From Escherichia phage 121Q: a stretch of DNA of 64,000 nucleotides. The translations under genes were made by a program, and so were the position numbers. Below the pieces are notes generated by a model. That model was not told the origin of the DNA. It was given only the letters and a program-made list of their open reading frames with translations, and did not search any database. Location: sequence record NC_025447.1. The stretch is one strand, 5' to 3'. Of this stretch, positions 6,851-25,690 are shown one piece after another (the first letter of the stretch is position 1; every line of letters begins with the position of its first letter).

Positions 6851-9514
6851 ATGGCAGGAGATCTACTCTCACCTGGCGTTTCCATTTCAGTAACTGATGA
6901 AAGTATGAGTACCGCTGCTGCTCCTGGCACTGTACCACTATTTGTAATCGCTACTGCTGAAGACAAACTTGTCCCAGGAAGCAGTGCAATAGCTGCGGGA
7001 ACTACTAAAGCAAACGCTGGAAAACTACAGCTTCTAACATCACAAAAAAGTTCACTTGATACCTATGGTACACCAATTTTTCAAATGAATAACGGTTCTG
7101 TTGTTCAAGGTGATGAACTAAACGAATATGGCCTACATGCAGTATATTCTTATCTAGGCATTACTAACCGTGCATATGTAATTCGTGCTGATATCGATCT
7201 AGCACAACTAGCACCAAGTGCAGAAGCACCAACTGGCCCAGTATCCAATGGTACTTTGTGGTTTGATACCGCACAATCACAAGTAGAAGCGTATGTAGCG
7301 AAGAAAGATAGTCCAAGCAGTTTTTATGATTGGCAACTTAAGCCAGTAACTATTGTAAGTGCTGAAGAAGTTGAAGATGTAAGTCTAGTAGGTTTAAATG
7401 TTGATGATTTAGTTCTACGTTACAAACCAAGCAATGGTCAGATGCTAATGTATAAACGTTCTGCTTCTGGGCTAGTGCAAATGGAAACTTACCTATCACC
7501 AATTAACAAAGTTCCAGTTGGCTCAACTGTAGAAAAAGGTAACATTTGGATTCGTGATGGTTACACCCAAAATGGTTCAAACTATTTTGGTACTCGTTTT
7601 GTTATTAAACGTTATGCATCCCTAACTCAAGTTTGGAATATTGTACCAGCATATACTGGTAATTCATTCCAAGAAATTGAAGCGAAAAGTGGTGTACTAA
7701 ACAATAGTTATATCGCATCTCGTTTTGATGAAGATAGTAAGAGTTTCTCTTTCTATATTCAAAGTGCAAAACTAACAACAATTAGTGCTCCTGCTTTGCC
7801 ACTTGGTGAAACTATTATTGAACAAGCAGGTGCTGATAGTTATATGACTTTTGTTTATTTGAATAAATCAGTTAAAGTACTAGCAGTTCCACAAGGCGGT
7901 GTTATTAATACCCAAACTATCATCAATAATCTAAATGCAAATGCTGAAATTATTAACGATGGTTTTAAATTTAAACGTGAAACTAATGGTGGTTTAGTTG
8001 TTTCCAATACAAAAGGTTACAGTTTCAAAATCACACAAAGTGGTGATGATATTTTTGCTGAATCTGAACTACAAAAACTAACAGTAGATAGTAACAACTA
8101 CTCTCTAATTAACGTGAATAACTTCCGTGTTAGTTATTCAGTACCACGTAGTGTAGCAAAAGAAGGAACTCTCTGGTATGATTTCGGGAACTCCGATAAT
8201 CTAACTGTAACTATGTATGTTGCTGATGTTGCTAATGATGAATGGGATCTAGTACAAGAAGAAAACAAATATGTACAAGTTGATGAACCAGCGGCTGACC
8301 GTTTAATTTGGGTTTGTCCTTTATCCCAAGGCATTGATGGTTATGATTTCTATCGTAACGTTGATGGTGAATGGGTTAAACTTGACAGTACTGATCAAAG
8401 TACACTAAATGGTATGATTTTCCAAGACTTTAATTTCCCAAGCCAAGTTCCTGCTGCGGCATTGTATCAAAATGGTATGCTTGCAGTTGACCTAGGTAAC
8501 ACTGAAGGTGTTGTTAAGAAAATGGTTAATGGTCAATGGGAAGTTGTTAGTGGTGTAAGTCTTGATGGTGCTGGCCTATTTGGTCGTGCTGCACAACGTC
8601 AACTAGTAGTTGAAGCACTAGCTGCTGTTATTATTGGTAATGATGACATTCGTTCTGAATTTATTGATTTTAACCTAATTTGTGTACCTGGTTACGTTGA
8701 AACACTTGATGAATGTGTAACTTTAAACACTGATCGTAAAGAAACTGCATTTATTGTTACTGACGTTCCAGCACGTTTGAATCCAACTGGAAACGGTAGT
8801 GCTGTACAACAATGGGCTACTAATGCTAACAATGCACCAAGCAACGGTTCAGTTGGTCGTACAACTGCTTATGATTATGCTGCTCAGTATATGGGTTGGT
8901 GTCTAAGTACTAACGTTGATGGTGAAGAAGTTGCAGTTCCTGGTAGTACTATTGCAATGCGTACATATGCATACAGTGATAGTGTTAGTTATGTATGGTA
9001 TCCACCTGCTGGTACAACTCGTGGTGTTGTAACAAACGCTGCAAGTACTGGTTTTATCAACAGCGAAGGTGAATATCAACCAGTAGTATACAACCAAGGT
9101 CAACGTGACGTTATGTATACTAACAACATTAACCCAATTGCAATGCGTCCTAACCGTGGTTTGCTTGTTTATGGAGATAAAACTCTATCTGCTAATCAAA
9201 CTTCTGCACTAAGTCGTGTTAACGTTGCTCGTTTAGTTGTTTATATTCGTCGTCAACTAGAAATTATTTCCGAACCATTCCTATTCCGTTTGAATACTCC
9301 AAGTACTCGTCAGGAATTTAGTGGTGTAGTTAATAGCTTCTTGGCTGAAATTGTTCAACAACAGGGTCTTTATAACTTCGCAGTGGTTTGTGATGAAAGT
9401 AACAACACCGCAGAGCGTATTGACCGTAATGAACTTTGGATGGATATTGCAATTCAACCAACTAAGAGTATTAACTTCATTTACGTACCAATCCGTATCG
9501 AGAAAACTCAATAA
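6851..9514 (+). CDS. tail sheath protein (T4 gp18-like, enlarged to 887 aa)
   Basis: N-terminal LSPGVSISVTD and C-terminal RNELWMDIAIQPTKSINFIYVPI resemble T4 gp18 termini; strong terminator downstream. Confidence 0.85.
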   Translation: MAGDLLSPGVSISVTDESMSTAAAPGTVPLFVIATAEDKLVPGSSAIAAGTTKANAGKLQLLTSQKSSLDTYGTPIFQMNNGSVVQGDELNEYGLHAVYSYLGITNRAYVIRADIDLAQLAPSAEAPTGPVSNGTLWFDTAQSQVEAYVAKKDSPSSFYDWQLKPVTIVSAEEVEDVSLVGLNVDDLVLRYKPSNGQMLMYKRSASGLVQMETYLSPINKVPVGSTVEKGNIWIRDGYTQNGSNYFGTRFVIKRYASLTQVWNIVPAYTGNSFQEIEAKSGVLNNSYIASRFDEDSKSFSFYIQSAKLTTISAPALPLGETIIEQAGADSYMTFVYLNKSVKVLAVPQGGVINTQTIINNLNANAEIINDGFKFKRETNGGLVVSNTKGYSFKITQSGDDIFAESELQKLTVDSNNYSLINVNNFRVSYSVPRSVAKEGTLWYDFGNSDNLTVTMYVADVANDEWDLVQEENKYVQVDEPAADRLIWVCPLSQGIDGYDFYRNVDGEWVKLDSTDQSTLNGMIFQDFNFPSQVPAAALYQNGMLAVDLGNTEGVVKKMVNGQWEVVSGVSLDGAGLFGRAAQRQLVVEALAAVIIGNDDIRSEFIDFNLICVPGYVETLDECVTLNTDRKETAFIVTDVPARLNPTGNGSAVQQWATNANNAPSNGSVGRTTAYDYAAQYMGWCLSTNVDGEEVAVPGSTIAMRTYAYSDSVSYVWYPPAGTTRGVVTNAASTGFINSEGEYQPVVYNQGQRDVMYTNNINPIAMRPNRGLLVYGDKTLSANQTSALSRVNVARLVVYIRRQLEIISEPFLFRLNTPSTRQEFSGVVNSFLAEIVQQQGLYNFAVVCDESNNTAERIDRNELWMDIAIQPTKSINFIYVPIRIEKTQ

Positions 9515-9520
9515 AACACT

Positions 9521-9548
9521 AAGGGAACCTTTTGGTTCCCTTTTTTAT
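9521..9548 (+). terminator. rho-independent terminator after sheath gene
   Basis: AGGGAACC-tttt-GGTTCCCT then TTTTTT. Confidence 0.7.
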
Positions 9549-9909
9549 TGATTAAAATTAAATACCTTTATATTGATGTTATAAAGGAACATTATGGATA
9601 TGGAAGAAATACTAAAAAAAACAATACAAGATGTCAGTAAAATAGTTTTAACTCAGTTGGAATCAGTACACATACTAAATATATTTTTAAAAAATTTGGA
9701 AGATTGTCGGTATAATTGAAAAATACGAAGTATACACAAATGGAAAATGGTCTATATCAGTAAACTATATTGACCACACTAAACGAAAAAGATACTTATA
9801 TTGTGTTAATATTAATTGGTTCCCTGTTGATGACACTTTAGTTAATTAAAAATATACTTCCAGATAGATAAATAATATAAAGATGTCATTCCATAATAGG
9901 AGAATATAA

Positions 9910-10596
9910 ATGGCTACAATGCTTGATCGATATGGCGTACCGCTCGCTGGCGGTGGTCGTATCTCTATGAAACAACCAAAAGCAAAATACAAATTTCGTG
10001 TTATTTTCTTTGGTTTTGGTACTAATGATGATGGTAATATGATTACACTAGACACCAATACAGTTGGGGCAGTATCTGTATCACATGAAAATGTTACTGT
10101 TCATAGTTACAACAGTTCTGCACACTATAAAGGTAAGTACACTTGGGATACAATTGATGTTGCTTTCCGTGACTCAGTAGGTAATGCTTCTGCTAAAGCA
10201 CTATACAACCAAATGCGTAAAGAATTCAACTACTACAGTCAAGAATCTCGCATGACAGATTCACAATTTAAATTTGAAATGTGGATTCAAGAGCTTGATG
10301 GTTCTAATAGTGAAAATACAACAAACTTGTTTGAAGGAACATTGAGTACTTGGGTATGTCAAGGTTGCTTTATTGAATCCAGCAACTTTGGTGATTGGGA
10401 TTATTCCTCAAGTGAAGCACAAGTTATTTCAATGACTGTTCAACCAGATGGTTGTGCTAAATTGGGTCCAAATGGCGAAGCGTTCGGTGATGAAGTTAGT
10501 GGCTTCGGTAATCCATCAACTGCTACCTCTATTTCTGGTGCACAAACTAATATTAGTAGTACTACTCTACCAGATAGTAACTTCTACGAAAATTAA
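9910..10596 (+). CDS. tail tube-family protein (gp19-like), paralog 1
   Basis: Follows sheath gene; N-terminal RYGVPLAGGGRISMKQPKAKYKFRVIF and FRDSVGNASAKAL shared with next ORF. Confidence 0.5.
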   Translation: MATMLDRYGVPLAGGGRISMKQPKAKYKFRVIFFGFGTNDDGNMITLDTNTVGAVSVSHENVTVHSYNSSAHYKGKYTWDTIDVAFRDSVGNASAKALYNQMRKEFNYYSQESRMTDSQFKFEMWIQELDGSNSENTTNLFEGTLSTWVCQGCFIESSNFGDWDYSSSEAQVISMTVQPDGCAKLGPNGEAFGDEVSGFGNPSTATSISGAQTNISSTTLPDSNFYEN

Positions 10597-10617
10597 TTTT
10601 ATTTAAACTTAATATAT

Positions 10618-10647
10618 AGCCTCGAATCTATTCGGGGCTTTTTTTAT
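10618..10647 (+). terminator. rho-independent terminator after tube gene
   Basis: AGCCTCGAA-tcta-TTCGGGGCT then TTTTTTT. Confidence 0.6.
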
Positions 10648-10690
10648 GCTAAATAAAGTATAATGCCTTATAAAATAAAAAGAGGTTGCT

Positions 10691-11467
10691 ATGGCAAATA
10701 ACATGATTAATAAATATGGCGTTCCTTTACCATCGGGGCGTAATCGTTCAATGCTACAACCGAAAGCAAAATACAAGTTTCGTGTTATTGTGTATAATTT
10801 CGGTACTGATATAGATGAACGTGATCACATCGCATTAGATGTTGATAAAATTGATAGACCTACTGTAACATTTAGTACTCATAAACTATATCAATTTACT
10901 ACTAATACTTCCTATATAGGTAGTCATGATTGGGAACCAATTACAATATCTATCCGTGATTCAGTTGGTAATGCATCAGCAAAAGCATTATCACGACAAT
11001 TACAAAAACAACTTGACTTTCAACGTAGAATAACTTCCAGAAATGACCAAGATTATGGTTCTTATAAATTTGGTTTGGTTATACAGATGTTGAGTGGACG
11101 TAACTCAGATGATACACTAGGAAATCTAGGAAGAGATACTCTAGTAGATGCTGCAACTGCTGCAACAAATAATTCTGGCTTAGTAAATGCAGTAGATCAA
11201 TTTATTGGTGGTTCTTCATATAACAGTGCTGGTGTTATGGAATACTTTGTTTTAACCGGATGTGTTATTCAAAACATATCATACGATTCATTAGATTATA
11301 GCTCAAGTTCTCCAGTTGAAATGGTAGTTACTATCAAACCAGATAATTGTATACAATTTGATAATATTGAAGAAATGTATAGTACCAGAATTAATTCACT
11401 TTTACCTGAAAATGTCAATCAAGGTTTAGATATCATTGATCGTGTTTTTGGTAGTGTAGGATTTTAA
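10691..11467 (+). CDS. tail tube-family protein, paralog 2
   Basis: Shares KYGVPL..QPKAKYKFRVI and IRDSVGNASAKAL with 9910-10596. Confidence 0.5.
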   Translation: MANNMINKYGVPLPSGRNRSMLQPKAKYKFRVIVYNFGTDIDERDHIALDVDKIDRPTVTFSTHKLYQFTTNTSYIGSHDWEPITISIRDSVGNASAKALSRQLQKQLDFQRRITSRNDQDYGSYKFGLVIQMLSGRNSDDTLGNLGRDTLVDAATAATNNSGLVNAVDQFIGGSSYNSAGVMEYFVLTGCVIQNISYDSLDYSSSSPVEMVVTIKPDNCIQFDNIEEMYSTRINSLLPENVNQGLDIIDRVFGSVGF

Positions 11468-11478
11468 GGAGATAATGA

Positions 11479-13586
<2,108 letters not shown>

Positions 13587-13613
13587 CTTAAACGACCTTA
13601 TGGAGTTATTAAA

Positions 13614-14150
13614 ATGAATAGATTACAACAAATCCTAACTGAAAAGAAACCAGTTTATGAATACCGAGTTAAGTTTGCAGTTGAACCAACACCTGAGCAA
13701 CTTAGTAAAGTAACACAGCGACTAATGGATCGCTATGATGCGTTTGAAATTGGAGCACTAAAGAAAACAATTTTTATGGAAAAACCATTAGATTTCTATG
13801 AATTAGATTGTGGTGAAATTTGGATGTTTGACTTTAAATGTCATCGTGGCGTTCAATCAAATGTACTAATGTATGAAATTGGCAATTTACTAAGCATGAC
13901 AGAAGCATTGATTCGTGTTCGTAGTAAAGATGAACCTCGTCAAATTGAAATGACTGATTTGGAAGATGATATCGATTTTGATGATGTTGATGAACCAGTT
14001 ATTGGAGTGGATTTTGGTAAACCAGAAGACAGTTATGACTTAGCTGGACAACAACGTGCAAACACTGCCGTTGATGATGCAATTGAAGCATCGAAAAAAG
14101 ACAATAAATACTCTCAATATATGAGTGCTGGTTTTGGTAAAAAGGATTAA
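13614..14150 (+). CDS. hypothetical protein
   Basis: ORF with GGAG RBS. Confidence 0.5.
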   Translation: MNRLQQILTEKKPVYEYRVKFAVEPTPEQLSKVTQRLMDRYDAFEIGALKKTIFMEKPLDFYELDCGEIWMFDFKCHRGVQSNVLMYEIGNLLSMTEALIRVRSKDEPRQIEMTDLEDDIDFDDVDEPVIGVDFGKPEDSYDLAGQQRANTAVDDAIEASKKDNKYSQYMSAGFGKKD

Positions 14151-14153
14151 CAC

Positions 14154-14696
14154 ATGAGTATACTTAATGAAATGTTAGATTATGAAGACAATGAGTTAAA
14201 TGAAGCTCGTCCTTATAGTCGTTCACAAAGTGCAGTTGATAGTGCAAAAGGAAAAGTAAAAGGCTTTTTTGGTAGTGGACAGATTGAACAAGGTGCACAA
14301 GAAGTTGGTGCTGAAGCCAACCGCTTATGGGCAGAGTTTAAACGTTATGTTGGACGTAAATATGGTAAAGCTCAACCATCAGTACCTTACGCTGATGTGG
14401 CACAGTTTTTTAAAGGTAACAATCTTGATATTAAACATTTAGGGAACAATCCTCGTCGTTCTTTTACACCAAAAGATGTAGGTACTGCTCTATTAAATGC
14501 TGCTCGTGATATAATGAATGACTACCGTGACCAACAAGGTGGCGAAGAAAGTTCAGAATCACAACCATCACAATCGACCTCAACTGAGCAACCAGCACAA
14601 CAAGAACAACCAAAAGCACAAGGTTCCAGTATCCCTGATGCTCTACAAAAATTAAGTCCAGAGCAACGCGACCAACTGTTACGTATGCTTTCTTAA
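14154..14696 (+). CDS. hypothetical protein with Q/S/E-rich low-complexity C-terminus
   Basis: ORF with AAGGA RBS. Confidence 0.5.
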   Translation: MSILNEMLDYEDNELNEARPYSRSQSAVDSAKGKVKGFFGSGQIEQGAQEVGAEANRLWAEFKRYVGRKYGKAQPSVPYADVAQFFKGNNLDIKHLGNNPRRSFTPKDVGTALLNAARDIMNDYRDQQGGEESSESQPSQSTSTEQPAQQEQPKAQGSSIPDALQKLSPEQRDQLLRMLS

Positions 14697-14709
14697 GGAG
14701 AATCAACAC

Positions 14710-16227
14710 ATGGATAATTTTTTCAGTACTGAAACTACCACAGTTCCTAATGGATATGTATATACGTCACATACTGGTGCAAAATATGTATTTCTTGAAG
14801 GATTCTGGTTCAATGACAATAATATGTTAATGGTAGACCCTAGAAAATACCCATCCATGTACGCAAGTGCTCGACAACAGATTGTCGAGCACAATCTAGC
14901 TTCAAATGAATATAAGATTGGTAACAAATATATTGTTGAAGGTAAAGAGTGTACATTTATTGGTGAAAACCGTTTCAATTCAAAAGATGGAATTCTATTA
15001 ACTGAAAGTGAATTCATCACTGAATTAATGGCAGATGATCATCGAGTATATAATGTTTCTAAAGAAACACTACAAAAAGAATGGAATGCATTAAAATTTT
15101 ACATTCTTCCACCATATGCTGATGATATATCAATTCCAGCAGGTATGGAAGTAAGTGGTTTTAAATTTGTGCCAAAGAATCACCGTTTTGTTGATATGAA
15201 ATCAGGACGAGCAGTTGATCCAGCAATGACCCGTAAACTATCAGATGAAGGTATGCGTATTGCTCGTCAGTTAGCTTCTAAAAATAAACTAATTCCAATC
15301 AAATCAACCTTAGTTCAAGGCAATACACGTTGTGAGTGGAATGGTAAAGAATTTTGTGATAATGATGGTAATGTAGTAATTCCAGAACAAAATGCACATG
15401 CAATTATTAATGCATATCAGCAATTTGTTAAGAATAACCCAAGTGATTTTCCTACATTAACGGGTGAACAAGAACATAGTGAGCAACGTTTTGGTTCAGG
15501 TGAAAAGCCACATAAAGCTTCACACCCTGCTAAACAGCCAGTATTTGCAACTAAAGAATCAATTAATGAAGCAGATGAAGAAATTGAAGAATTTGAAAGC
15601 ATTACTGTTCCTGACGGTTATAGAATGACTTCTTCTAAAGGAAAAACATACGCTAAGAAAAATAACTTGTGGTATGATATCGAAAGTAAAAAGCAACTTA
15701 ACACAAGTGCTTCTAAAAGTGTTGAACGAGCAGCACAGCGTGATATTTTCCGTCATAACAATTCCGGTGCTATGAAAATCGGTACAAAAGTTAAATCCAA
15801 ACAAGGCAAAGAATATTCGTATGTTGGTGGTGACAGATTCATTAGTGCTGATGGTAAGTTTATACCAAAAGCAACTGCTGCTAAATTACTTGCCAAATAT
15901 GAACAAGATAAAGAAGTTAAAAGTGATGAAACACCTGAAGTAGACTCTGGTACTGAGCAAATTCAATCAAAAGAAGAACCTAAGAAAGAACCAGAATCTG
16001 AACAAAAACCAGACGAAGTTTCTGAACCAGAAACTAAATCTGAAACAATTGCTGGTGATGATGTACAATCATTAGCTTCTAAAATTAAAGAGTCACCTTA
16101 TGCTAAAAAAATCACAGTACTACTAACTCGTGGTGATGAGGTTTCTCTACTTGCTGCTGACATTTTACTTTCAGGTAAAAAGGATGAAACAGTGCAAATT
16201 TTAAAATCATTAAATAATAATGATTGA
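14710..16227 (+). CDS. hypothetical protein with internal domain duplication
   Basis: ORF with AGGAG RBS; residues ~10-100 and ~300-395 share VP(N/D)GY..TS..G..Y and KIG.K....GKE..(F/Y)(I/V)G..RF patterns. Confidence 0.5.
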   Translation: MDNFFSTETTTVPNGYVYTSHTGAKYVFLEGFWFNDNNMLMVDPRKYPSMYASARQQIVEHNLASNEYKIGNKYIVEGKECTFIGENRFNSKDGILLTESEFITELMADDHRVYNVSKETLQKEWNALKFYILPPYADDISIPAGMEVSGFKFVPKNHRFVDMKSGRAVDPAMTRKLSDEGMRIARQLASKNKLIPIKSTLVQGNTRCEWNGKEFCDNDGNVVIPEQNAHAIINAYQQFVKNNPSDFPTLTGEQEHSEQRFGSGEKPHKASHPAKQPVFATKESINEADEEIEEFESITVPDGYRMTSSKGKTYAKKNNLWYDIESKKQLNTSASKSVERAAQRDIFRHNNSGAMKIGTKVKSKQGKEYSYVGGDRFISADGKFIPKATAAKLLAKYEQDKEVKSDETPEVDSGTEQIQSKEEPKKEPESEQKPDEVSEPETKSETIAGDDVQSLASKIKESPYAKKITVLLTRGDEVSLLAADILLSGKKDETVQILKSLNNND

Positions 16228-16249
16228 TAACTAAAAGGATTTATTTAAA

Positions 16250-17230
16250 ATGGCTAAAAAAATTAATGAAGCACAAGTTAAAATCGATATCGCAGGTTTA
16301 GAATCTGATGATTTGGAAACTCTATCACGTATGTTAGCTCTTGCTGGTCAAGCTGAACGTCAAGACCCAGTAGTTGCCGCTCCAGTACCATCTATGGGGT
16401 CTATGACTCCATCTCTTCCACCTATTGCTCCACTAGATCTCGATTCTATTGGTGCTGAAGAAGAAATTGGTGGAATTGAAACTTCAGTTGAAGACCCACT
16501 AGCAGCGGCAGTTGATGATCTTTCCGCTGATGTTGGTGATTTTGGTGCTGACACAGATGAAGTTAGTATGGATGCTGAATTTTCAGAACCAGGTGTAGAA
16601 GGTGAAGAAGATTTTTCTCTTGACCTTAGTGGTCAACCTCAACTAGAATCAGTTGAAGAAGACGATGAGGAAGAAGAAGAAATTATTGAAGAAGAATTCG
16701 ATTTTAGTCGTATGCTATCTCTTGCTGGTATTAACGAAGAAGAAGACGAAGATTTTTCAGTAGAGGGTAATCCTGCTACCGATAAAGAAATGAAAGATAC
16801 CCAATTTCTACCAGATCTAAGTATCTCTGAAGATGAAGAACCATCTAACAGTACTGATTATGGTCCATATGATACAGAAGCTGATGCCGTTCGTGATGGT
16901 CAACTAAAGACTAATGGTGTTGAAGGTGACCATTTTGTTGTAATTGCAAAAGGCAATCAATTTTATTGGAGACGTGTTGTAGATGAAGATCTTGACAATC
17001 GTCCAGAACCTGAGTATTATGATAATGAAGGGAACGAAAATCGTGTTCATAAATTTGAACCAAAATTCCCAGGCACTGCATTAGGAGATAACCCACTAAA
17101 TGTTAATGAAAGTGAAGAAGATGATTCACCTGAAGGTAACATTGACTTGGAAGATGATTCTGATGAAGAAGTAGAAGATATTTTTGAAAGTCTCCAAGAA
17201 AAATACAAGAAATTTTTAGGAGACAAATAA
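16250..17230 (+). CDS. highly acidic low-complexity protein
   Basis: Long Asp/Glu runs (DDEEEEEIIEEEFDF); AAGGA RBS. Confidence 0.5.
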   Translation: MAKKINEAQVKIDIAGLESDDLETLSRMLALAGQAERQDPVVAAPVPSMGSMTPSLPPIAPLDLDSIGAEEEIGGIETSVEDPLAAAVDDLSADVGDFGADTDEVSMDAEFSEPGVEGEEDFSLDLSGQPQLESVEEDDEEEEEIIEEEFDFSRMLSLAGINEEEDEDFSVEGNPATDKEMKDTQFLPDLSISEDEEPSNSTDYGPYDTEADAVRDGQLKTNGVEGDHFVVIAKGNQFYWRRVVDEDLDNRPEPEYYDNEGNENRVHKFEPKFPGTALGDNPLNVNESEEDDSPEGNIDLEDDSDEEVEDIFESLQEKYKKFLGDK

Positions 17231-17231
17231 T

Positions 17232-17627
17232 ATGCAATATAATTATCGTGAACTAGTTGAAGCGTTAGACGAAATTACCGGAAGAGATGAAGACGAAAGT
17301 TTTTCAGTTGAAGTTGAATCCGATGTTGTAGCAGTTGATGTTCTTAAGGATATTACCAAATGTCTTATTGATATTGTTGATAAGATTAAATCTGGTGAAG
17401 ACCAAAAAGAAATTGTAGATAAACTACAAAAAGCCTGTGACATTTTGTCTGACATTCGATATAATGATGAAAGTACTGAAGTTGCTGATGAAGAAGTGTT
17501 GGAAGCCATTGCAGGTTGTTTTGGAACTGAAGGTATGGGACCAACAATTGACAAAGAAGGCGTACAACACTATAATGAGCCTGGTGCACCATCATATGCT
17601 GCACGTCAAGGTTTTGTTGGAGACTAA
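17232..17627 (+). CDS. acidic hypothetical protein
   Basis: ORF with AGGAG RBS, tightly coupled to upstream gene. Confidence 0.5.
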   Translation: MQYNYRELVEALDEITGRDEDESFSVEVESDVVAVDVLKDITKCLIDIVDKIKSGEDQKEIVDKLQKACDILSDIRYNDESTEVADEEVLEAIAGCFGTEGMGPTIDKEGVQHYNEPGAPSYAARQGFVGD

Positions 17628-18326: not shown

Positions 18327-19652
18327 ATGACTACTCAAAACGATATCCTGAACGTTAAACTGACTCCAAAGAAAGCTAAAGAAGCAATGGCACTAGCTGA
18401 CATGATTCAAGATAGCCTGATGATTTGGGGTAGCCCAGGTATCGGTAAGTCTGCAATCGCTCGTCAATACGCTGATGAAAATTACCCACTGCGTAAAGAT
18501 AACGTAGCTAAAATCGAGTTCATGAAACAACAAATCGAAGCTGACCCTGAAAATGCTGATCAGCTACGCCGTGAACTGGCTGCATTTGAAGCAAAACTAA
18601 TCGACCAAGATACTAACTTTATCGATTTCCGTTTGTCTCAAATCGAACCAAGTGACCTTCGCGGTATTCCAGTACCAGAGAAGCTTTTCCGTAAAACTGA
18701 CGGTTCTCTTCTGAAAGAATCTGAGCTTGCCGAAGCAAAAGATTATGTAGCTGAAACTGCGGTAGTATGGGCTGCACCTAAAGTTCTGAAATTGTCCGAA
18801 GATTGGAAAGGTGTTATTCTGTTTGACGAAATTAACTCTGCAATGCCTATTGTTCAGGCAGCGTCTTATCAGCTAATCCTCGACCGTTGTGTTGGTGAGA
18901 TGAAGCTACCTAAGACTGCACTGATTCTTGCAGCAGGTAACCGTGAAACTGATGGCGGTGTAACTTTCTCTCTTGCTACACCACTGCGTGACCGTATGAC
19001 TCACATTGAGATGATTCCTTATCATCAAGATTGGATTAACGATTATGCGATTGCAAAACGTTTGAACCCAGCAACTGTTGCGTTCATCAACAACACTGGT
19101 TCTAAGTACTTTAACACACTTAGTCCACAAGATCCTTCTCACAGTGGTGGTACTTCTCCACGTTCATGGGAAGCAGTAGCACGCTACGAAGATCTCAAGA
19201 AAACTAAGACAATTGATAAAGAAGTGTTCCGTGCAATGATTGCTGGTCGTGTTGGTGAAGGTGTTGCAACTGAATACATTGAGTACGTTGAGAACGTTGC
19301 TAAACTACCAGATACTATGTCTATTCTGTCTGGTGAAATCAAAGAAATCGACGCAACGCTGGATATTTCTGCGAACTACTTTATCACTCTGAACTTGGTT
19401 TATAAAATTATCGACCTGTTCAATGAGAAGCAAGAACAACGTCTACCAGTGGAAGAATGGGGTAAACTGTGTAACAACTTCATCACCTTCCTAGACCATA
19501 ACTTCTCTGCAACTCAAGCAGAACTGGCAGTACTGGCAATTCGTACCATCACGCTTCATAAGGTTGCGATTTCCATTAAAGATGTACCAGCGTTTAAAGA
19601 TTTCATCGCTAAGTACTCTGAACTTGTACGTAAAGCACGCTCTCTTGGCTAA
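18327..19652 (+). CDS. MoxR-like AAA+ ATPase
   Basis: Walker A GSPGIGKS, Walker B ILFDEIN, Arg-rich sensor region; long insertion between Walker A and B. Confidence 0.8.
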   Translation: MTTQNDILNVKLTPKKAKEAMALADMIQDSLMIWGSPGIGKSAIARQYADENYPLRKDNVAKIEFMKQQIEADPENADQLRRELAAFEAKLIDQDTNFIDFRLSQIEPSDLRGIPVPEKLFRKTDGSLLKESELAEAKDYVAETAVVWAAPKVLKLSEDWKGVILFDEINSAMPIVQAASYQLILDRCVGEMKLPKTALILAAGNRETDGGVTFSLATPLRDRMTHIEMIPYHQDWINDYAIAKRLNPATVAFINNTGSKYFNTLSPQDPSHSGGTSPRSWEAVARYEDLKKTKTIDKEVFRAMIAGRVGEGVATEYIEYVENVAKLPDTMSILSGEIKEIDATLDISANYFITLNLVYKIIDLFNEKQEQRLPVEEWGKLCNNFITFLDHNFSATQAELAVLAIRTITLHKVAISIKDVPAFKDFIAKYSELVRKARSLG

Positions 19653-19726: not shown

Positions 19727-21151
19727 ATGTCAGATAACAAATCTACTTCCAGATTCAATGAAGTATCTCCGGCACTCCAGAAAGAATGTCAAGATCGTCT
19801 GGTTCTGGCTCGTACATCTTTGATGTTAACTGCACCATTCTTTGGTGTACTCGCTTCACGTTTACGTCCAGTTCCTAATAATACATGGTGTCGTACTCTA
19901 GCAGTTGATGGTAAACATCTATTCTACAACGTAGAATTTGTAATGGGTATTCAAGACCCATCTAAAAAGAAAGAATATGAAGAAGCTATTCGTGAAAAGC
20001 ATCCTGAAGTTACAGACGAACAATTAAAAGAAATGACTGAAGGTTTGACTGATGAAAACCTTATTGCTGTAATTTGTCATGAAATTCTACACTGTGCTTA
20101 CGATCACTTCCTTCGTCGTGGTATGCGTGATCCACAACGTTATAACCGTGCAGCGGATTATGCCATTAACCAAATCATCGTTCGTGAGAAAATTGGAAAA
20201 ATCCAAAGTTCATGGTTGTATGATAAAAAATATGAAGGTATGACCGCAGAAGAGATTTACATTCTTCTTGAAGAAGAAGAACAAAAAGAAGATGGTGAAG
20301 GTGAAGGTCAACCACAAAGTGGCGGCGGTGAAGGTGAAGGTAAAAATCGCGGTACTTTTGGTGATATTAAAGATGGTAAGGGTAAACCAAAAGGTACTAC
20401 CATTGACCAGCATGACGTTCCACAAGAAGGTCAAGAAGGTGGTTCAAGTGAACAGCAAAAACGTGATTATATGGATGATTTCAAAACAGCAATGATGAAT
20501 GCTGCACGTGCAGGTGGTACACCAGCAGAAATCGCTCGTATGATTAACAACTTTAAAGAACCAAAGATTGACTGGCGTTCAAAACTTCAACGTACACTTC
20601 GTAGTTGGTTGAAGTCTGATGCAACGTATCAAAGTCCTTCTCGTCGTTCATGGGGTGCTGGTTTTGGTTCTAATGGTTCATTCTATGGTAATCCAATTTA
20701 CCCAGGGATGAAACCAGATGATGATATTGATATTGCGATTGCACTAGATGCTTCTGGGTCTATTTCTGAAGATATGCTTCGTGATTTCATTAGTGAAGTT
20801 CTTGGCATCACTAAACAATTCAAACAGTTTAAGATTCGTATCATGACTTTTGATACTGAAGTTTATACTGTAAAGGATTACAAAACTGGCGAAGAACGTA
20901 AGATTCTGGAATATCCAGTAAAAGGTGGTGGTGGTACTGACTTTGAAGCAGTATGGGTTCATATGAAGAACGACAACTACAAGCCTAAACAGCTTGTAAT
21001 GTTTACTGATGGTGAACCGTGGCAGTCATGGGGTGATCCAAACTACTGTAAAACACTGTTCGTGATTCACAGTAACCCAAATAAAGTTGCACCATTTGGT
21101 GAGACTGTACACTACGAATATGAAGCTGATAAAAAGCGTCAACGTAGTTAA
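19727..21151 (+). CDS. metallopeptidase-like (HExxH) / von Willebrand factor A domain protein, partner of the MoxR ATPase
   Basis: HEILH motif near residue 119; Gly/Glu-rich linker; C-terminal MIDAS-like DASGS ... MFTDGEP typical of VWA domains. Confidence 0.75.
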   Translation: MSDNKSTSRFNEVSPALQKECQDRLVLARTSLMLTAPFFGVLASRLRPVPNNTWCRTLAVDGKHLFYNVEFVMGIQDPSKKKEYEEAIREKHPEVTDEQLKEMTEGLTDENLIAVICHEILHCAYDHFLRRGMRDPQRYNRAADYAINQIIVREKIGKIQSSWLYDKKYEGMTAEEIYILLEEEEQKEDGEGEGQPQSGGGEGEGKNRGTFGDIKDGKGKPKGTTIDQHDVPQEGQEGGSSEQQKRDYMDDFKTAMMNAARAGGTPAEIARMINNFKEPKIDWRSKLQRTLRSWLKSDATYQSPSRRSWGAGFGSNGSFYGNPIYPGMKPDDDIDIAIALDASGSISEDMLRDFISEVLGITKQFKQFKIRIMTFDTEVYTVKDYKTGEERKILEYPVKGGGGTDFEAVWVHMKNDNYKPKQLVMFTDGEPWQSWGDPNYCKTLFVIHSNPNKVAPFGETVHYEYEADKKRQRS

Positions 21152-21162
21152 GTACTAAATAA

Positions 21163-21194
21163 AGAGAACGGAATTTTCCGTTCTCTTCTTTTAT
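21163..21194 (+). terminator. rho-independent terminator after VWA gene
   Basis: AGAGAACGG-aatttt-CCGTTCTCT then TCTTTTAT. Confidence 0.65.
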
Positions 21195-21196
21195 AA

Positions 21197-21226
21197 GTGG
21201 GACAACTTATAAAAATATGATATAAT
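21197..21226 (+). promoter_or_regulatory. putative early promoter, motif GTGGGACA-N13-TGATATAAT (second copy)
   Basis: Directly after terminator of VWA gene; identical box spacing to 2184-2213. Confidence 0.4.
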
Positions 21227-21260: not shown

Positions 21261-21506
21261 ATGGAACAAGAAAATAATCAAATTCAACTAACCCTTCTAG
21301 ACCTAATCAATGCTGCAAAAATCATGGAAGCTGCTGTTGCACGAAACACCTTTAAAGTTGAAGAACTTGTTGAGGTTGCTCCAGTTGTATCTAAATTTGT
21401 TTCTTTTGCAAATGTAGCTCTTGAAGATATTAAAGCACAAGAAGATGCAGCTAAAGAAGAAGCTGAATCACAAGATAGTGAAACTCAAGAAGATAAAGGA
21501 GAATAA
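21261..21506 (+). CDS. small acidic hypothetical protein
   Basis: ORF track 21246-21506; ATG 21261 has GGAGAG 7 nt upstream. Confidence 0.45.
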   Translation: MEQENNQIQLTLLDLINAAKIMEAAVARNTFKVEELVEVAPVVSKFVSFANVALEDIKAQEDAAKEEAESQDSETQEDKGE

Positions 21507-21508
21507 TT

Positions 21509-22165
21509 ATGGCAGCTATTCGTCATGTTGGTGTAATGCGTAATACAGGTTCTCGTGTTTTTGTTGTTTGGCGTTCACTACCAGATGATCCTGAACACTG
21601 CCTTATCGTTTATCGTGATTCACTACCAGAAGCATATGTTCACGCAGTAACTGATATTGTTATGGGTCATGGTCAATCTAATATTGATTTGTGGGAAGTA
21701 ATGCATAAAATTGGTTATCTCGATGGACGCAAAATGCTAGATGTTCTACACAACATGCAGCATCTACGTCGCGTTCGTACTTGTGACATTGATATGCACA
21801 CTGGTGGTAATAATAAAATTTCTCTTGATGTTCTAAACAAAGCATTAGATGAAAATCAAGCGAAAGTACAAGAAGATGGTAAAGTAAAAGACTTTAACCC
21901 ATTCAATCCACAAGAAGCGGACACTAAAGTAGAAGAAGCTACTATTGTAGAACAACTTCTCACTGATGCACAAAAATATGAAAAACTGGCTAAAGAACAT
22001 TATGAACGTGCATACAATTTAGAGCCAAGCTTGCGTCCGCAAACACAAGTTGTTGAACAACCGAAAGATAGTAAAACAATTTATCTAGAAATTCCAGAAG
22101 GTATTTCACAGACTAAAGCTATTGAGAAAGTAAAACAACTATTTGCAGAACGTAAAGCAAAATAA
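21509..22165 (+). CDS. hypothetical protein
   Basis: ORF with AAGGAG RBS; coupled to neighbours. Confidence 0.5.
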   Translation: MAAIRHVGVMRNTGSRVFVVWRSLPDDPEHCLIVYRDSLPEAYVHAVTDIVMGHGQSNIDLWEVMHKIGYLDGRKMLDVLHNMQHLRRVRTCDIDMHTGGNNKISLDVLNKALDENQAKVQEDGKVKDFNPFNPQEADTKVEEATIVEQLLTDAQKYEKLAKEHYERAYNLEPSLRPQTQVVEQPKDSKTIYLEIPEGISQTKAIEKVKQLFAERKAK

Positions 22166-22168
22166 AAT

Positions 22169-22762
22169 ATGAAAAAGAATGAATTAGATGAAGCAATTAA
22201 AGGTTTATCTAATGTATGTTTTAGTGGCGGGGCAGCAGGTGCTGACCGCCTTTTTTCTATCTATGCAAAAAATAATGGATTTGAAGTTATTAATTTTTCA
22301 TTCAAAGGTCATGAGCATAGTGTAGATGAAAGTACTATATTAGAAATACCATCCAATATTCTATCTGATATTTCTATATTAAATCAACTAAACATTGCAT
22401 GTTACTCGTTGCAGCGAAAAGTACCAAAACCTGGTTCTTATGTTTACAACTTACTTGCAAGGAATAGTTATCAGATACTTAATACAGAAAGAATATATTG
22501 TATTGCAAATATCACATCACCAACTAAGGTAAGTGGTGGTACTGCATGGGCAGTACAGATGTATATGGATTCAGTTGAAAATCCTGAAATTTATTGTTAT
22601 GATATGAATTCACGTTCAGTATTTTATTTCGATACAGTACTGAAAGAGTTCACACAAACATTCGTCGTTCCAGCACCACATGGTAACTGGACTGGTATTG
22701 GTTCACGCAATGCCACCGAAAAACATATGGAACATTTTATTACATTTTTCAAGGAAGAATAA
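22169..22762 (+). CDS. Rossmann-like protein, possible SLOG (Smf/DprA-LOG) superfamily member
   Basis: CFSGGAAGADRLFS near N-terminus and later SGGTAWAVQ resemble the two glycine-rich SLOG motifs; stop overlaps td start. Confidence 0.4.
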   Translation: MKKNELDEAIKGLSNVCFSGGAAGADRLFSIYAKNNGFEVINFSFKGHEHSVDESTILEIPSNILSDISILNQLNIACYSLQRKVPKPGSYVYNLLARNSYQILNTERIYCIANITSPTKVSGGTAWAVQMYMDSVENPEIYCYDMNSRSVFYFDTVLKEFTQTFVVPAPHGNWTGIGSRNATEKHMEHFITFFKEE

Positions 22763-23691
22763 TGAAACAACTACAAGAACTATATCAAAAAATTCTAGAT
22801 GAAGGCGTAGAAAGCGTTGACCGTACTGGTGTTGGAACAATCAAACTTATCGGTCAACAAATGCGTTTTGACCTTAAAGATGGTTTCCCAGCAGTGACGA
22901 CAAAACGTCTAGCTTGGAAAGCAATGACTTCAGAATTACTATGGTTTATTGAAGGTTCCCATGATGAGCGTCGCCTTTGTGAAATTTTGCATGGAACTCG
23001 TGATACAGAAAAGAAAACTATTTGGACAGATAATTACCTAAATCAAGGCGTTGCTCTTGGTTATACTGATGGTGAGTTAGGTCCAGTGTATGGTAAGCAA
23101 TGGCGTGAATGGGAAGATTATAAATTTAGTTCCAGTACTGAAGAAATTCAAGAATTAAAAGATAAAGGATACAAAGTTATCGATTATACTGGTTCACATG
23201 GTGTTGTTATGAAACGTACAACTGACCAATTACAAGAACTAATCAAAGGTATAAAGTCCGATCCATATGGCCGTCGCCACATTCTAAGTGCATGGAACGT
23301 TGGTGAGCTTGATGATATGACGTTACCACCTTGTCATAGCTTTGTGCAATTTTGTGTAGTGCAAGGAAAACTAAGCTGTATTCTGCATCAACGCTCCGCT
23401 GATCTATTTTTAGGAGTTCCATTTAATATCAGTAGTTACTCACTACTAACTCATATGATTGCACAAATTACTGGTTTAGATGTTGGTGAATTTATTTGGA
23501 ATGGTGGTGATTGTCACATTTATAAAAACCACGTTGAACAAGTAAAAGAACAACTACAGCGAAAACCTCGTGAATTACCTGAATTGTGGCTTGATCCTAC
23601 AATTACTAATATTGAAGATTTCACTATGGATTCTTTTAAATTAGTGAATTACAACCCAATGCCAACAATTAAAGCACCTATGGCTGTATAA
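22762..23691 (+). CDS. td: thymidylate synthase (ThyA type, T4 td-like), uninterrupted
   Basis: DRTGVGT, KRLAWKA, catalytic LPPCH, QRSADLFLGVPFNISSYSLLTHMIA, GGDCHIYKNHVEQ; matches T4 td from memory. Confidence 0.9.
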   Translation: MKQLQELYQKILDEGVESVDRTGVGTIKLIGQQMRFDLKDGFPAVTTKRLAWKAMTSELLWFIEGSHDERRLCEILHGTRDTEKKTIWTDNYLNQGVALGYTDGELGPVYGKQWREWEDYKFSSSTEEIQELKDKGYKVIDYTGSHGVVMKRTTDQLQELIKGIKSDPYGRRHILSAWNVGELDDMTLPPCHSFVQFCVVQGKLSCILHQRSADLFLGVPFNISSYSLLTHMIAQITGLDVGEFIWNGGDCHIYKNHVEQVKEQLQRKPRELPELWLDPTITNIEDFTMDSFKLVNYNPMPTIKAPMAV

Positions 23692-23726
23692 ACGAAAAGG
23701 GAGAACATCAGTTCTCCCTTTTTTAT
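23690..23726. terminator. bidirectional terminator between convergent td and fibre genes
   Basis: AAGGGAGAAC-atca-GTTCTCCCTT flanked by A-run and T-run. Confidence 0.7.
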
Positions 23727-25690
23727 TATCTAATTGTTACCAATGTTCTTCCGTCGAAACGTACATCAGGAGTTGAAGGTATACTAAACACTACGTTAGT
23801 GCCGTTAAACGTAACGCTATCGACCTCAACACGAGTATAGACACCAGGACTAACCTGTTCCTGTATCTCTGCTGTGACGATGTTTGAGGCTGTTACAGTA
23901 AGGGTGTAGTAGTTACCACTTAATACCCAAGATGAAATTGTAAAAGCATCGGTTCTCACTGAACCTGAACCAATTGGAACCCATTGACCTTGAACTTTTT
24001 GCATTGAAGTACGCTCGGTATTGGAGTATGCAATCATACCATCAACGCCAACAGAGTTATCAATAGTAGCTAGTACTGGTAATTGGATACCATATCTATT
24101 AAAACGTGTTCTTATAGTTCCATTATCATAGATACTTACATCAGCATAATTACCCATTGATAGTTTTAAATCAGAACTAACTAATTGGATTGTACTTTGA
24201 TTAGTAGTACTTTCTAATGTAATTATACCATTAGCTAATAGATTTATATTTTTAAATTTATTAGTTGTTCCATTGAAATTAGTGTTTGCTGTAAACGTAC
24301 TAACTCCATTAACTGTAATTGTATCAGATGCAGCATCGCCTAATGTAGTATTACCTTGAATGTTCAAATTACCACTAGCAGTGATATTACTAGCTGATGT
24401 ATCACCAGTCAATGTACTTGTACCATCAACCACAATATTACCATGAAACGCACTTTCACCATTTTTAAATTCAACTTGTACTTTATTCATTGAACTAAAT
24501 GAAATAATATTACTACTAGCACTTAGTCCAACATTAGTATTGGTTGCATTATCAAATCTTAGTACTGGGGTTGATGCTGGGGTTGAAGTTGTTTGGTATA
24601 ATGTTAATGTTGAATTATTAATTCTAATACGTTCAGTTCCAGCAGTACTGAAACCAATTGCATCATCTGCTGGATGAAACATACCAGTATTAGCGTCTGA
24701 CCATTTTGCAGGATCATTACCTGGGTTATTGGTTGGATCAAATGGATTGTTATTAAATGTCAATGCTGGTGCTGCTGCACTACCATAGACCACACCAAAA
24801 CGCCCTGAGCCGCTTGTTCCATCATTATACATGGAATCACCAGTTCTACGTAAACACTCAATCACAACGTTATCTATGGATGTTTGAACGGTCCCTGCGT
24901 TTGTCCTAAATTGACGATGATTTGCAATCATTACAGTATTGTCATATAATACTGAAGCAGCGGAAATGCTTGTTCTTGACTGGCGTAGACGTATGTTTTT
25001 ATCTTCAGTTATAATAATCCAATCACCATCTGATAGTGCGGTTTGGTTCATTGGAACACCTGAAGCAAATGGTTTGGTTAAGTCAGCATCTGTTGCTAAA
25101 TTTTTAAGACCATCATGACCAGTACTAGGAATAGATGCAGGAATAATTCTAGCGAAAGCGTATGTTACTAGTTTAGCACCAGATATATTTGGATTAGAGT
25201 CAACATAATATAAAATTTCAATCCAATTACCTTGTCCAGTTGGATTTGTAGGTGTAAATGTAACAGGACTTGTTTGTGGATTATTTGCTTCATAATGGGC
25301 TTGTGCGGCATCCATAATACCACGAACAACATAATAATCACCATTTAGTGATGCTGCTGGTGCTGGTAGTGGTGTTTGTGCTAAAGGTGGATCAATATCA
25401 TCTGGGATAGGATTGTATGTACCAACAAACTGTAAACCACTAGTTACTGAATCTGGTAATTGGGAAGTAAGAAGTTTACCATTTGCATCTAAGTTTGCAA
25501 AGCGGCGATATGCCATAGTACCATCTTCAAAATCCAGAACACCTTCAAATGATTTCCATTCCTTATTGTATCTAATCATCCCTGATCTTATTACATCAGC
25601 GGTTTCTTTTGATGGTGCTTTCGGTAACTCTAAAAAAGATTTACTATCAATAATTACACCACCATCACCTCTAATTCGATTTATACTCAT
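23726..25690 (-). CDS. tail fibre protein
   Basis: 654 aa, S/T/N/G-rich strand repeats after a distinct N-terminal domain; late-promoter-like box and RBS upstream. Confidence 0.6.
   Translation of the reverse strand: MSINRIRGDGGVIIDSKSFLELPKAPSKETADVIRSGMIRYNKEWKSFEGVLDFEDGTMAYRRFANLDANGKLLTSQLPDSVTSGLQFVGTYNPIPDDIDPPLAQTPLPAPAASLNGDYYVVRGIMDAAQAHYEANNPQTSPVTFTPTNPTGQGNWIEILYYVDSNPNISGAKLVTYAFARIIPASIPSTGHDGLKNLATDADLTKPFASGVPMNQTALSDGDWIIITEDKNIRLRQSRTSISAASVLYDNTVMIANHRQFRTNAGTVQTSIDNVVIECLRRTGDSMYNDGTSGSGRFGVVYGSAAAPALTFNNNPFDPTNNPGNDPAKWSDANTGMFHPADDAIGFSTAGTERIRINNSTLTLYQTTSTPASTPVLRFDNATNTNVGLSASSNIISFSSMNKVQVEFKNGESAFHGNIVVDGTSTLTGDTSASNITASGNLNIQGNTTLGDAASDTITVNGVSTFTANTNFNGTTNKFKNINLLANGIITLESTTNQSTIQLVSSDLKLSMGNYADVSIYDNGTIRTRFNRYGIQLPVLATIDNSVGVDGMIAYSNTERTSMQKVQGQWVPIGSGSVRTDAFTISSWVLSGNYYTLTVTASNIVTAEIQEQVSPGVYTRVEVDSVTFNGTNVVFSIPSTPDVRFDGRTLVTIR

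What the first reader, a model, noticed from the sequence alone, without database searches (positions are those of the whole stretch)
21261..23691. Translationally coupled operon linking a possible SLOG/DprA-like protein to thymidylate synthase
Four genes with overlapping or near-abutting stops and starts (21506/21509, 22165/22169, 22762 TAATG) end in a T4-td-like thymidylate synthase. The gene immediately upstream (197 aa) has GGAAGAD and SGGTAW glycine-rich motifs reminiscent of SLOG-superfamily nucleotide-binding domains. Coupling to td suggests a role in nucleotide metabolism, possibly a nucleotide-modifying or nucleotide-signal-degrading activity; TS homologs in some phages make hydroxymethyl-pyrimidines, so DNA hypermodification is one possibility. 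The td gene is uninterrupted, unlike T4 td.
Basis: inference. Interest (0 to 1): 0.55.

Follow-up and report, generated by a model that had tools for sequence, protein, structure and literature searches.

The report
Jumbo-phage thymidylate synthase operon with SLOG protein
A jumbo E. coli phage has a tight four-gene operon that ends in an ordinary thymidylate synthase and includes a small, rearranged nucleotide-binding (SLOG) protein of unknown ligand; the pairing holds only in this phage lineage and nothing points to exotic DNA chemistry.

The parts
21162..21187 (+). Terminator-like hairpin ending the upstream VWA/metallopeptidase gene; left boundary of the unit
   Evidence: 11-bp stem with 5 GC pairs followed by a T-run
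21199..21226 (+). Sigma70-like promoter-like site (GGGACA, 16 nt, TG-TATAAT)
   Evidence: 10 of 12 consensus matches with an extended -10 TG. This is a consensus match only; the count of such sites in the region does not exceed the shuffled expectation.
21261..21506 (+). Gene 1: small acidic protein (81 aa from 21261, 86 aa from 21246), function unknown
   Evidence: phrog_13789, unknown function, E 2e-37. Conserved only in Rak2-like loci. GGAG lies 9 nt upstream of 21261.
21509..22165 (+). Gene 2: 218-aa clade-restricted protein, function unknown; N-terminal alpha/beta domain followed by helical and disordered segments
22169..22762 (+). Gene 3: 197-aa standalone, circularly permuted SLOG domain (YpsA/DprA-like, cpYpsA-type)
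22762..23691 (+). Gene 4: thyA-type thymidylate synthase (dUMP to dTMP), uninterrupted, with an insertion at the position of the L. casei-type small domain
   Evidence: Pfam PF00303 E 8e-102. NCBIfam equivalogs NF002497 (342.9 bits, cut-off 327) and TIGR03284. 53% identical to E. coli ThyA with all catalytic residues conserved.
23694..23723 (+). Strong intrinsic-terminator hairpin between TS and the convergent 654-aa gene (23726-25690, minus strand); right boundary of the unit
   Evidence: 13-bp stem, 4-nt loop and T-run; the sequence has A- and T-runs on both sides
6130..6756 (+). T4 gp1-type dNMP kinase of this phage, directly upstream of the tail sheath gene. In distant relatives the SLOG gene sits immediately after this kinase.
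   Evidence: Pfam DNMK E 1e-11. Matches the profile built from SLOG-adjacent kinases, E 4e-78. Sheath homologues flank the pair in relatives.

Best explanation
This is an ordinary, real four-gene transcription unit of a Rak2/PBECO4-like jumbo myovirus. It lies as an island of DNA-metabolism genes between virion-gene blocks. Shown: gene 4 is a canonical ThyA that methylates dUMP to dTMP using methylene-tetrahydrofolate. Shown: gene 3 is a standalone SLOG Rossmannoid domain of the YpsA/DprA-like type whose sequence is circularly permuted, with the strand plus G-S-R loop that comes first in DprA placed at the C-terminus, as in the cpYpsA structure 3imk. Inferred: its four conserved loops (SGGAxGAD, RNxxQ, GGTAW, GIGSR) form the usual SLOG ligand crevice. 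The protein binds a nucleoside-phosphate-type ligand there and may cleave its N-glycosidic bond using the GxD aspartate. It acts in the phage DNA-precursor and DNA-metabolism programme alongside the enzymes that make and phosphorylate dTMP. Within that reading I favour a free nucleotide ligand (a (d)NMP or a related phosphoribosyl compound) over single-stranded DNA, roughly 60:30. The adjacency to TS is lineage-specific gene order. It does not indicate a hydroxymethyl-pyrimidine or DNA-hypermodification pathway. Genes 1 and 2 are clade-restricted proteins with no assignable activity.
For: Operon anatomy comes, and its conservation in 13 Rak2-like loci. TS: equivalog scores above cut-off; R21, E58, W80, Y94, R126/127, C146, H147, R166, S167, D169, N177, H207, Y209 and the C-terminus all conserved. 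SLOG fold. The permuted motif order holds in 37 of 53 phage, vRNAP-embedded and bacterial members, and 3imk shows the first three motifs in the same order. Nucleotide-metabolism context: a T4 gp1-type dNMP kinase is the commonest neighbour (18 of 144 neighbour proteins). It lies immediately upstream on the same strand, often with overlapping stop and start, in 14 of 46 clusters (under 70% identity) and within four genes in 19, across three different local arrangements. Other neighbours include dCMP deaminase, NMNAT-Nudix and NAMPT, and dUTPase and dCTP-deaminase-like genes. One fusion has a histidine phosphatase domain. Guanylate-kinase fusions of viral SLOG domains are reported in PMC9503650. 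The GxD/E motif is needed for YpsA function (PMC6459960). No hypermodification: fEgEco12 restriction digests; the RaK2 gene inventory includes DHFR, dCMP deaminase, thymidine kinase and dNMP kinase but no hydroxymethylase.
Against: No ligand or activity has been measured for any member of this family. The LOG catalytic motif PGGxGTxxE is absent (GGTAWAVQ instead), so hydrolysis is unproven. All dNMP-kinase-linked loci come from one broad myovirus lineage related to G17 (sheath 36-57% identical), so inherited synteny may inflate that signal. Several independent contexts are DNA-centred rather than nucleotide-pool-centred: gp47/gp46 nuclease genes in Cr30, WYL regulator plus topA in Flavobacteriaceae, a helicase fusion, and N4-like vRNAP and crAss-like giant proteins. 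The two motif arginines correspond to the ShosA residues required for ssDNA binding.
Confidence: 0.5

Rival explanations
1. The 197-aa protein is a compact DprA-like single-stranded-DNA binder or recombination mediator. It would use the G-S-R and R-N arginines to hold ssDNA phosphates and help the phage RecA-like recombinase, filling the place of the missing UvsY. Its position next to TS would only reflect co-expression with other early or middle DNA-metabolism genes.
Against: There is no significant sequence match to DprA: hhalign probability 0.1, no Pfam DNA_processg_A hit for the query, and only 2 of 58 members hit it weakly. The protein lacks the SAM and C-terminal domains of DprA. The best structural match is cpYpsA-type 3imk and not DprA. 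The commonest genomic partner is a nucleotide kinase and not a recombinase or SSB. The protein is acidic (pI 5.75), although E. coli Smf's core is also near neutral.
Confidence: 0.25
2. The protein is an anti-defence factor. As a YpsA-like viral SLOG domain it would bind or cleave NAD-derived immune signals such as cADPR isomers or ADPr derivatives, deployed early in infection or injected as part of giant virion proteins in other phages. The TS adjacency would be incidental.
Against: It is a prediction with no experimental support. No Macro or NADAR fusions or neighbours appear in the G17 operon or in most loci; each such family occurs once among 144 neighbours. The dominant partner is dNMP kinase. 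The flavobacterial chromosomal copies sit by topA in a housekeeping region.
Confidence: 0.17
3. One reading: the operon makes a modified pyrimidine (TS homologue as hydroxymethylase, SLOG protein as a further nucleotide-modifying enzyme) that leads to hypermodified phage DNA.
For: Only the juxtaposition of a TS-family gene with a nucleotide-binding fold and the general precedent of TS-family hydroxymethylases in other phages (my own knowledge; also noted).
Against: The TS meets the curated equivalog thresholds for true thymidylate synthase. [quoted passage not shown] RaK2 encodes DHFR and the normal dTMP pathway, and only methylation is reported. SLOG-TS linkage is absent outside one clade.
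Confidence: 0.03

Closest known systems
cpYpsA family (Pfam PF12694; structure 3imk, 'putative molybdenum carrier protein' of Syntrophus aciditrophicus)
   Different: No significant sequence match: PDB profile search and Pfam. The G17 family is about 40 residues longer, with an inserted helical segment (about residues 45-95) and a beta-hairpin region (141-164). 3imk itself has no known function.
[quoted passage not shown]
   Same: It is the only Pfam family hit (E 5e-4; 12 of 58 members). Relatives are annotated 'DUF2393'-style as 'DUF2493 domain-containing protein' in public records. Shares the GxD/E signature that is required for YpsA function.
   Different: The score of 20.2 bits is below the gathering cut-off of 28.2, and only model positions 21-60 of 66 align, so the first strand and its loop are missing at the N-terminus. 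This fits the permutation.
DprA/Smf and the DprA-like antitoxin ShosA
   Different: Permuted motif order; no SAM or C-terminal domain; half the length; no significant profile match. ssDNA binding and RecA loading are untested.
LOG / PpnN nucleotide phosphoribohydrolases
   Different: The PGGxGTxxE catalytic motif is not present. No Pfam LOG-family hit.
E. coli ThyA, L. casei TS and T4 td thymidylate synthases
   Same: Gene 4 is 53% identical to E. coli ThyA, has all catalytic residues and passes the equivalog cut-offs.
   Different: 309 aa because of insertions totalling 45 residues, the largest (29 aa) at the position of the L. casei small-domain insert. W83 is Tyr. No intron, unlike T4 td.

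Membership tests
Thymidylate synthase ThyA (EC 2.1.1.45) | Full-length match to the family models above the curated thresholds | tested here: met
   Pfam PF00303, 340 bits, model positions 2-266 of 266. NCBIfam NF002497, 342.9 bits (cut-off 327). TIGR03284, 326.8 bits (cut-off 108).
Thymidylate synthase ThyA (EC 2.1.1.45) | Catalytic Cys146, phosphate-binding Arg21/126'/127'/166, Asn177, Tyr94, Glu58, Trp80, His207/Tyr209 and a C-terminal carboxylate tail | tested here: met
   All conserved (C191, R21, R171, R172, R211, N222, Y110, E58, W88, H252, Y254; C-terminus KAPMAV). Only W83 is changed, to Tyr.
Thymidylate synthase ThyA (EC 2.1.1.45) | dUMP to dTMP activity | not testable with these tools
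   Needs an enzyme assay or complementation of an E. coli thyA mutant.
dCMP/dUMP hydroxymethylases (TS-family enzymes used for modified bases) | Asp in place of Asn177 (cytosine specificity), or loss of the active-site-closing C-terminus and shielding residues that allows water attack (features recalled from the T4 gp42 literature) | tested here: not met
   N222 is retained. W88, Y110 and the C-terminal KAPMAV are retained. The protein scores as a TS equivalog.
dCMP/dUMP hydroxymethylases (TS-family enzymes used for modified bases) | Phage DNA carries a modified pyrimidine and resists many restriction enzymes | tested here: not met
   From the literature on close relatives only: fEgEco12 DNA is cut by 10 enzymes with the predicted patterns (PMC13070987), and only methylation is reported for RaK2 (PMC3622015). 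G17 itself has not been assayed.
SLOG superfamily | Rossmannoid three-layer alpha/beta fold that matches solved SLOG structures | tested here: met
SLOG superfamily | Glycine-rich ligand loops after the core strands | tested here: met
   Invariant S19, G20, A22, G24, D26 and G123, T125, A128 and G176, G178, R180 across 58 sequences.
cpYpsA / YAcAr (YpsA-like SLOG clade) | Circularly permuted order of the SLOG motifs (chain starts at the SGGxxGxD loop) | tested here: met
cpYpsA / YAcAr (YpsA-like SLOG clade) | Match to the Pfam models at or above the gathering score | tested here: not met
   YAcAr 20.2 bits versus cut-off 28.2. No cpYpsA hit for the query. One relative hits cpYpsA weakly, 19.5 bits versus 26.2.
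DprA/Smf (Pfam PF02481) | Sequence match to the DNA_processg_A model or to a DprA profile | tested here: not met
   No hit for the query. 2 of 58 members hit at E about 6e-3. hhalign against E. coli Smf gives probability 0.1.
DprA/Smf (Pfam PF02481) | Multidomain architecture (N-terminal SAM domain, Rossmann core, often a C-terminal winged helix) with the GSR motif first | tested here: not met
   Single 197-aa domain with the GSR motif at residues 176-180.
DprA/Smf (Pfam PF02481) | ssDNA binding and RecA loading | not testable with these tools
   Needs EMSA and recombinase-loading assays. The motif arginines equivalent to ShosA R139 and R234 are conserved.
LOG phosphoribohydrolases | PGGxGTxxE motif with the catalytic Glu | tested here: not met
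   The equivalent segment is (V/I)SGGTAWAVQM, with no Glu three residues after the Thr.

The most novel reading that the evidence does not exclude
This large, uncharacterised, circularly permuted SLOG family (about 2,750 clusters at 50% identity) could be a new component of phage deoxynucleotide metabolism. It might be a dNMP-directed N-glycosidase that sanitises the pool, or a sensor that works with dNMP kinase and thymidylate synthase. The same module would then have been recruited repeatedly into injected virion RNA polymerases and giant crAss-like proteins to act on host nucleotides at the moment of infection.
Probability: 0.2. Interest if true: 0.6.

Novelty: new member of a known kind. 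Interest (0 to 1): 0.3.

Why it matters
The practical result is a correction. This operon should not be used as evidence for modified DNA in Asteriusvirus or Rak2-like phages, several of which are being considered for therapy. The 'DprA-like recombination mediator' label in public records is a fold-level guess and not a functional assignment. More broadly, the 197-aa protein represents a large phage-borne SLOG family whose ligand is unknown. Its recurrent coupling to dNMP kinase, and its insertion into injected giant virion proteins of N4-like and crAss-like phages, make it a tractable target for biochemistry: it is small, standalone and has a confident model. Identifying the ligand would settle whether viral YpsA-like SLOG domains act on nucleotide pools, on immune signals or on DNA. 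The literature so far addresses that question only by prediction.

Tried and rejected
1. Sequence searches of the 197-aa protein and of its family profile against PDB sequences found nothing meaningful.
2. hhalign of the family profile against E. coli Smf was not significant.
3. The AFDB50 Foldseek library was unavailable.
4. NCBIfam has no model for genes 1-3.
5. Pfam scans of the 255-312-aa extended variants and of most fusion proteins found no partner domain. The exception was one histidine phosphatase fusion.
6. A literature search for YAcAr, cpYpsA or DUF2493 returned mostly papers on Caiman yacare.
8. Net charge does not discriminate ssDNA binding from nucleotide binding: the family's median pI is about 7, and the Smf core is 6.8.
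9. Rfam and tRNA scans of the whole window were empty, so no riboswitch or other structured RNA explains the unit.
11. I considered that the dNMP-kinase link might be independent convergence. It is not clearly so, because all such loci belong to one broad lineage related to G17.

Full report
**Identity of the window.** The 2.8-kb region is 100% identical to Escherichia phage vB_EcoM_G17 and phage Sharanji. It is 98-99.9% identical to other PBECO4/121Q-like (Asteriusvirus) jumbo phages of 320-385 kb, and about 83% identical to a second species group. Public annotations call the four genes hypothetical, hypothetical, 'DprA-like DNA recombination-mediator protein' or 'DUF2493 domain-containing protein', and thymidylate synthase.

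**Observation.** The ORF table and the sequence confirm four same-strand genes: 21246/21261-21506, 21509-22165, 22169-22762 and 22762-23691. The spacers are 2 nt and 3 nt, and the last junction is a TAATG overlap. A terminator-like hairpin at 21162-21187 closes the upstream gene. A sigma70-like site with an extended -10 lies at 21199-21226. A 13-bp-stem terminator at 23694-23723 separates the TS gene from a convergent 654-aa gene. These are consensus scans, so the transcript itself is inferred. The block is conserved in order in 13 loci of Rak2-like jumbo phages, with 49-62% identity for the 197-aa protein and 69-80% for the TS. In RaK2 and other genera, extra small ORFs of 101 aa and 125 aa lie inside the block. 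So the gene order is conserved across the clade, but the direct SLOG/TS overlap is an Asteriusvirus feature.

**Thymidylate synthase.** Gene 4 matches Pfam Thymidylat_synt end to end (E 8e-102). It exceeds the curated NCBIfam equivalog cut-offs for thymidylate synthase. Its best PDB sequence matches are E. coli ThyA (E 1e-80), L. casei TS and T4 td (E 4.5e-74). A pairwise alignment gives 53% identity to E. coli ThyA. R21, E58, W80, Y94, R126, R127, C146, H147, R166, S167, D169, N177, H207, Y209 and the C-terminal tail are all conserved, and only W83 is changed, to Tyr. The extra length comes from insertions, the largest at the site of the L. casei small domain. By sequence it is therefore a dTMP synthase and not a dCMP or dUMP hydroxymethylase. 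This fits the literature. RaK2 encodes DHFR, dCMP deaminase, thymidine kinase, dNMP kinase and ribonucleotide reductases, has no hydroxymethylase or glucosyltransferase, and only methylation was reported (PMC3622015). DNA of fEgEco12, whose SLOG protein is 88% identical and which has the same block, was digested by ten restriction enzymes with exactly the predicted patterns (PMC13070987).

**Is the link to TS general?** No. I fetched 79 related loci from viral contigs. A ThyA-type gene lies near the SLOG gene only in the Rak2-like clade, and none of the roughly 66 more distant loci (30-40% identity) has one within 8 kb. After clustering the SLOG proteins at 70% identity (46 clusters), I scanned 144 flanking proteins. 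The dominant neighbour is a T4 gp1-type deoxynucleoside monophosphate kinase (18 proteins; Pfam DNMK and phrog_139). It lies immediately upstream on the same strand in 14 clusters, usually with overlapping or abutting stop and start, and within four genes in 19 clusters. Two database contigs show the same arrangement. These phages are distant relatives of G17 (tail sheath 36-57% identical, kinase 34-47%), and the pair persists through three different local arrangements. In G17 the kinase (6130-6756) is followed directly by the sheath gene, with no SLOG gene between them. So in this broad lineage the SLOG gene sits next to one of two enzymes that handle dTMP. Which arrangement is ancestral was not determined.

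**Other contexts.** In the T4-like Caulobacter phage Cr30 the gene directly follows the gp47/gp46 recombination nuclease genes, inside the replication cluster. In Flavobacterium, Paenimyroides and Myroides chromosomes a homologue heads a conserved operon with an HTH-WYL-WCX regulator and topoisomerase I. That recalls the dprA neighbourhood with topA-like genes, as in E. coli smf-smg-yrdD. In Klebsiella phage Pylas the domain lies at about residues 980-1144 of the 3,819-aa virion RNA polymerase, upstream of the polymerase domains. In crAss-like phage cr130_1 it lies inside a protein of about 5,800 aa. Metagenomic ORFs of 2,900-4,050 aa, a helicase fusion and one histidine phosphatase fusion also occur. 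Scattered loci carry dCMP deaminase, NAMPT, NMNAT-Nudix, NADAR, NAD synthase, dUTPase or Acb1 genes nearby. An exhaustive profile search finds 2,753 clusters at 50% identity, mostly standalone proteins of 175-210 aa.

**Interpretation.** Three things are shown: a real conserved block, a canonical ThyA, and a permuted SLOG domain. The ligand is inferred. The literature offers two untested predictions for phage SLOG proteins. One is an extra ssDNA binder in recombination (PMC7824862). The other is a sensor or degrader of NAD-derived immune signals, with sporadic fusions that include guanylate kinase (PMC9503650). My evidence adds a strong association with NMP-kinase and dTMP-pathway genes, plus a phosphatase fusion. 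These favour a small nucleoside-phosphate ligand. The DNA-centred contexts (gp46/47, topA, helicase, virion polymerases), the DprA-type arginines and the absence of UvsY in RaK2 keep the ssDNA reading alive. I commit to a nucleoside-phosphate ligand bound in the conserved crevice, possibly hydrolysed, as part of the DNA-precursor and DNA-metabolism programme. I give the overall statement 0.5 confidence. Within it, a free nucleotide is favoured over ssDNA by about 60:30, and an ADPr-type signal is a sub-case. The hypermodification reading gets about 3%.

**Verdict.** The exotic chemistry is not supported. The gene is already labelled in public records, and viral SLOG domains have been surveyed, so this is a new member of a known kind. 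As far as I can tell, the following have not been described before: the permuted topology, the dNMP-kinase coupling, and the insertions into virion polymerases and crAss-like giant proteins.

Noticed in passing
window 18327-19652 and 19727-21151 (+): A MoxR-like AAA+ ATPase is followed by a protein with a DUF2201_N putative metallopeptidase domain and a VWA-like domain (Pfam E 3e-34 and 7e-21). PHROG-based public annotation calls the second gene 'HNH endonuclease' (phrog_1314), which looks like a misnomer. The pair lies just upstream of the operon, inside the virion-gene region.
   Followed up: partly
window 6130-6756 and 6851-9514 (+): The phage's T4 gp1-type dNMP kinase lies directly upstream of the 887-aa tail sheath gene. 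Distant relatives have the SLOG gene inserted between the homologues of these two genes.
   Followed up: yes
L085 (Klebsiella phage Pylas NC_049444) 6061-17520; match at 9001-9492: The same SLOG family domain is embedded at about residues 980-1144 of the 3,819-aa N4-type virion RNA polymerase, N-terminal to the polymerase domains (1599-2355). Similar giant ORFs of 3,000-3,560 aa occur in L075, L080, L081/L082 and L084.
   Followed up: partly
L100 (crAss-like phage cr130_1 NC_055901) 1-11298: A crAss-like phage protein of about 5,800 aa, labelled 'DprA-like' as a whole, contains the SLOG domain and is followed by a second giant ORF of 2,074 aa. The BFVD fold search also matches segments of other crAss-like giant proteins and a helicase fusion.
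   Followed up: no
L101 (Caulobacter phage Cr30 NC_025422) 4998-5540: In this T4-like phage the SLOG gene directly abuts the gp47/gp46 (Mre11/Rad50-type) recombination nuclease genes and is followed by a peptide deformylase gene, within the replication gene cluster.
   Followed up: no
L089 5986-11274 (Flavobacterium sp. xlx-214 chromosome); also L086 and L090-L096: A chromosomal operon is conserved across Flavobacterium, Paenimyroides and Myroides: SLOG homologue (186-196 aa), then an HTH-WYL-WCX regulator, then topoisomerase I, then an arginase-family protein. It lies next to MiaB-like, sigma54-activator and LptE genes.
   Followed up: partly
P0261 (368 aa, metagenomic): A fusion of an N-terminal histidine phosphatase (His_Phos_1, E 4e-20) with the SLOG domain (residues 187-351). 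It was the only fusion partner with a recognisable small-molecule enzymatic domain.
   Followed up: no
L006 7709-8014; L009 7706-8014 and 8588-8965: RaK2-type and other relatives carry extra small ORFs (101-102 aa between the 218-aa gene and SLOG; 125 aa between SLOG and TS in L009) that are absent from G17. Neither has a significant Pfam match.
   Followed up: partly
window 23726-25690 (-): A convergent 654-aa gene, annotated as hypothetical or structural in relatives and lying in the tail-fibre region, shares the hairpin at 23694-23723 with the TS gene. This suggests a bidirectional terminator.
   Followed up: no
GenBank OQ708376 (phage vB_EcoM_CRJP21) 143639-144229: This record annotates the SLOG ORF (100% identical protein) as 'long tail fiber proximal subunit', which is almost certainly an annotation error.
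   Followed up: no
L005 2770-10703: One distant SLOG locus carries dCMP deaminase, an NMNAT-Nudix fusion and NAMPT within a few kb. This combines deoxynucleotide and NAD-salvage genes around the SLOG gene.
   Followed up: no
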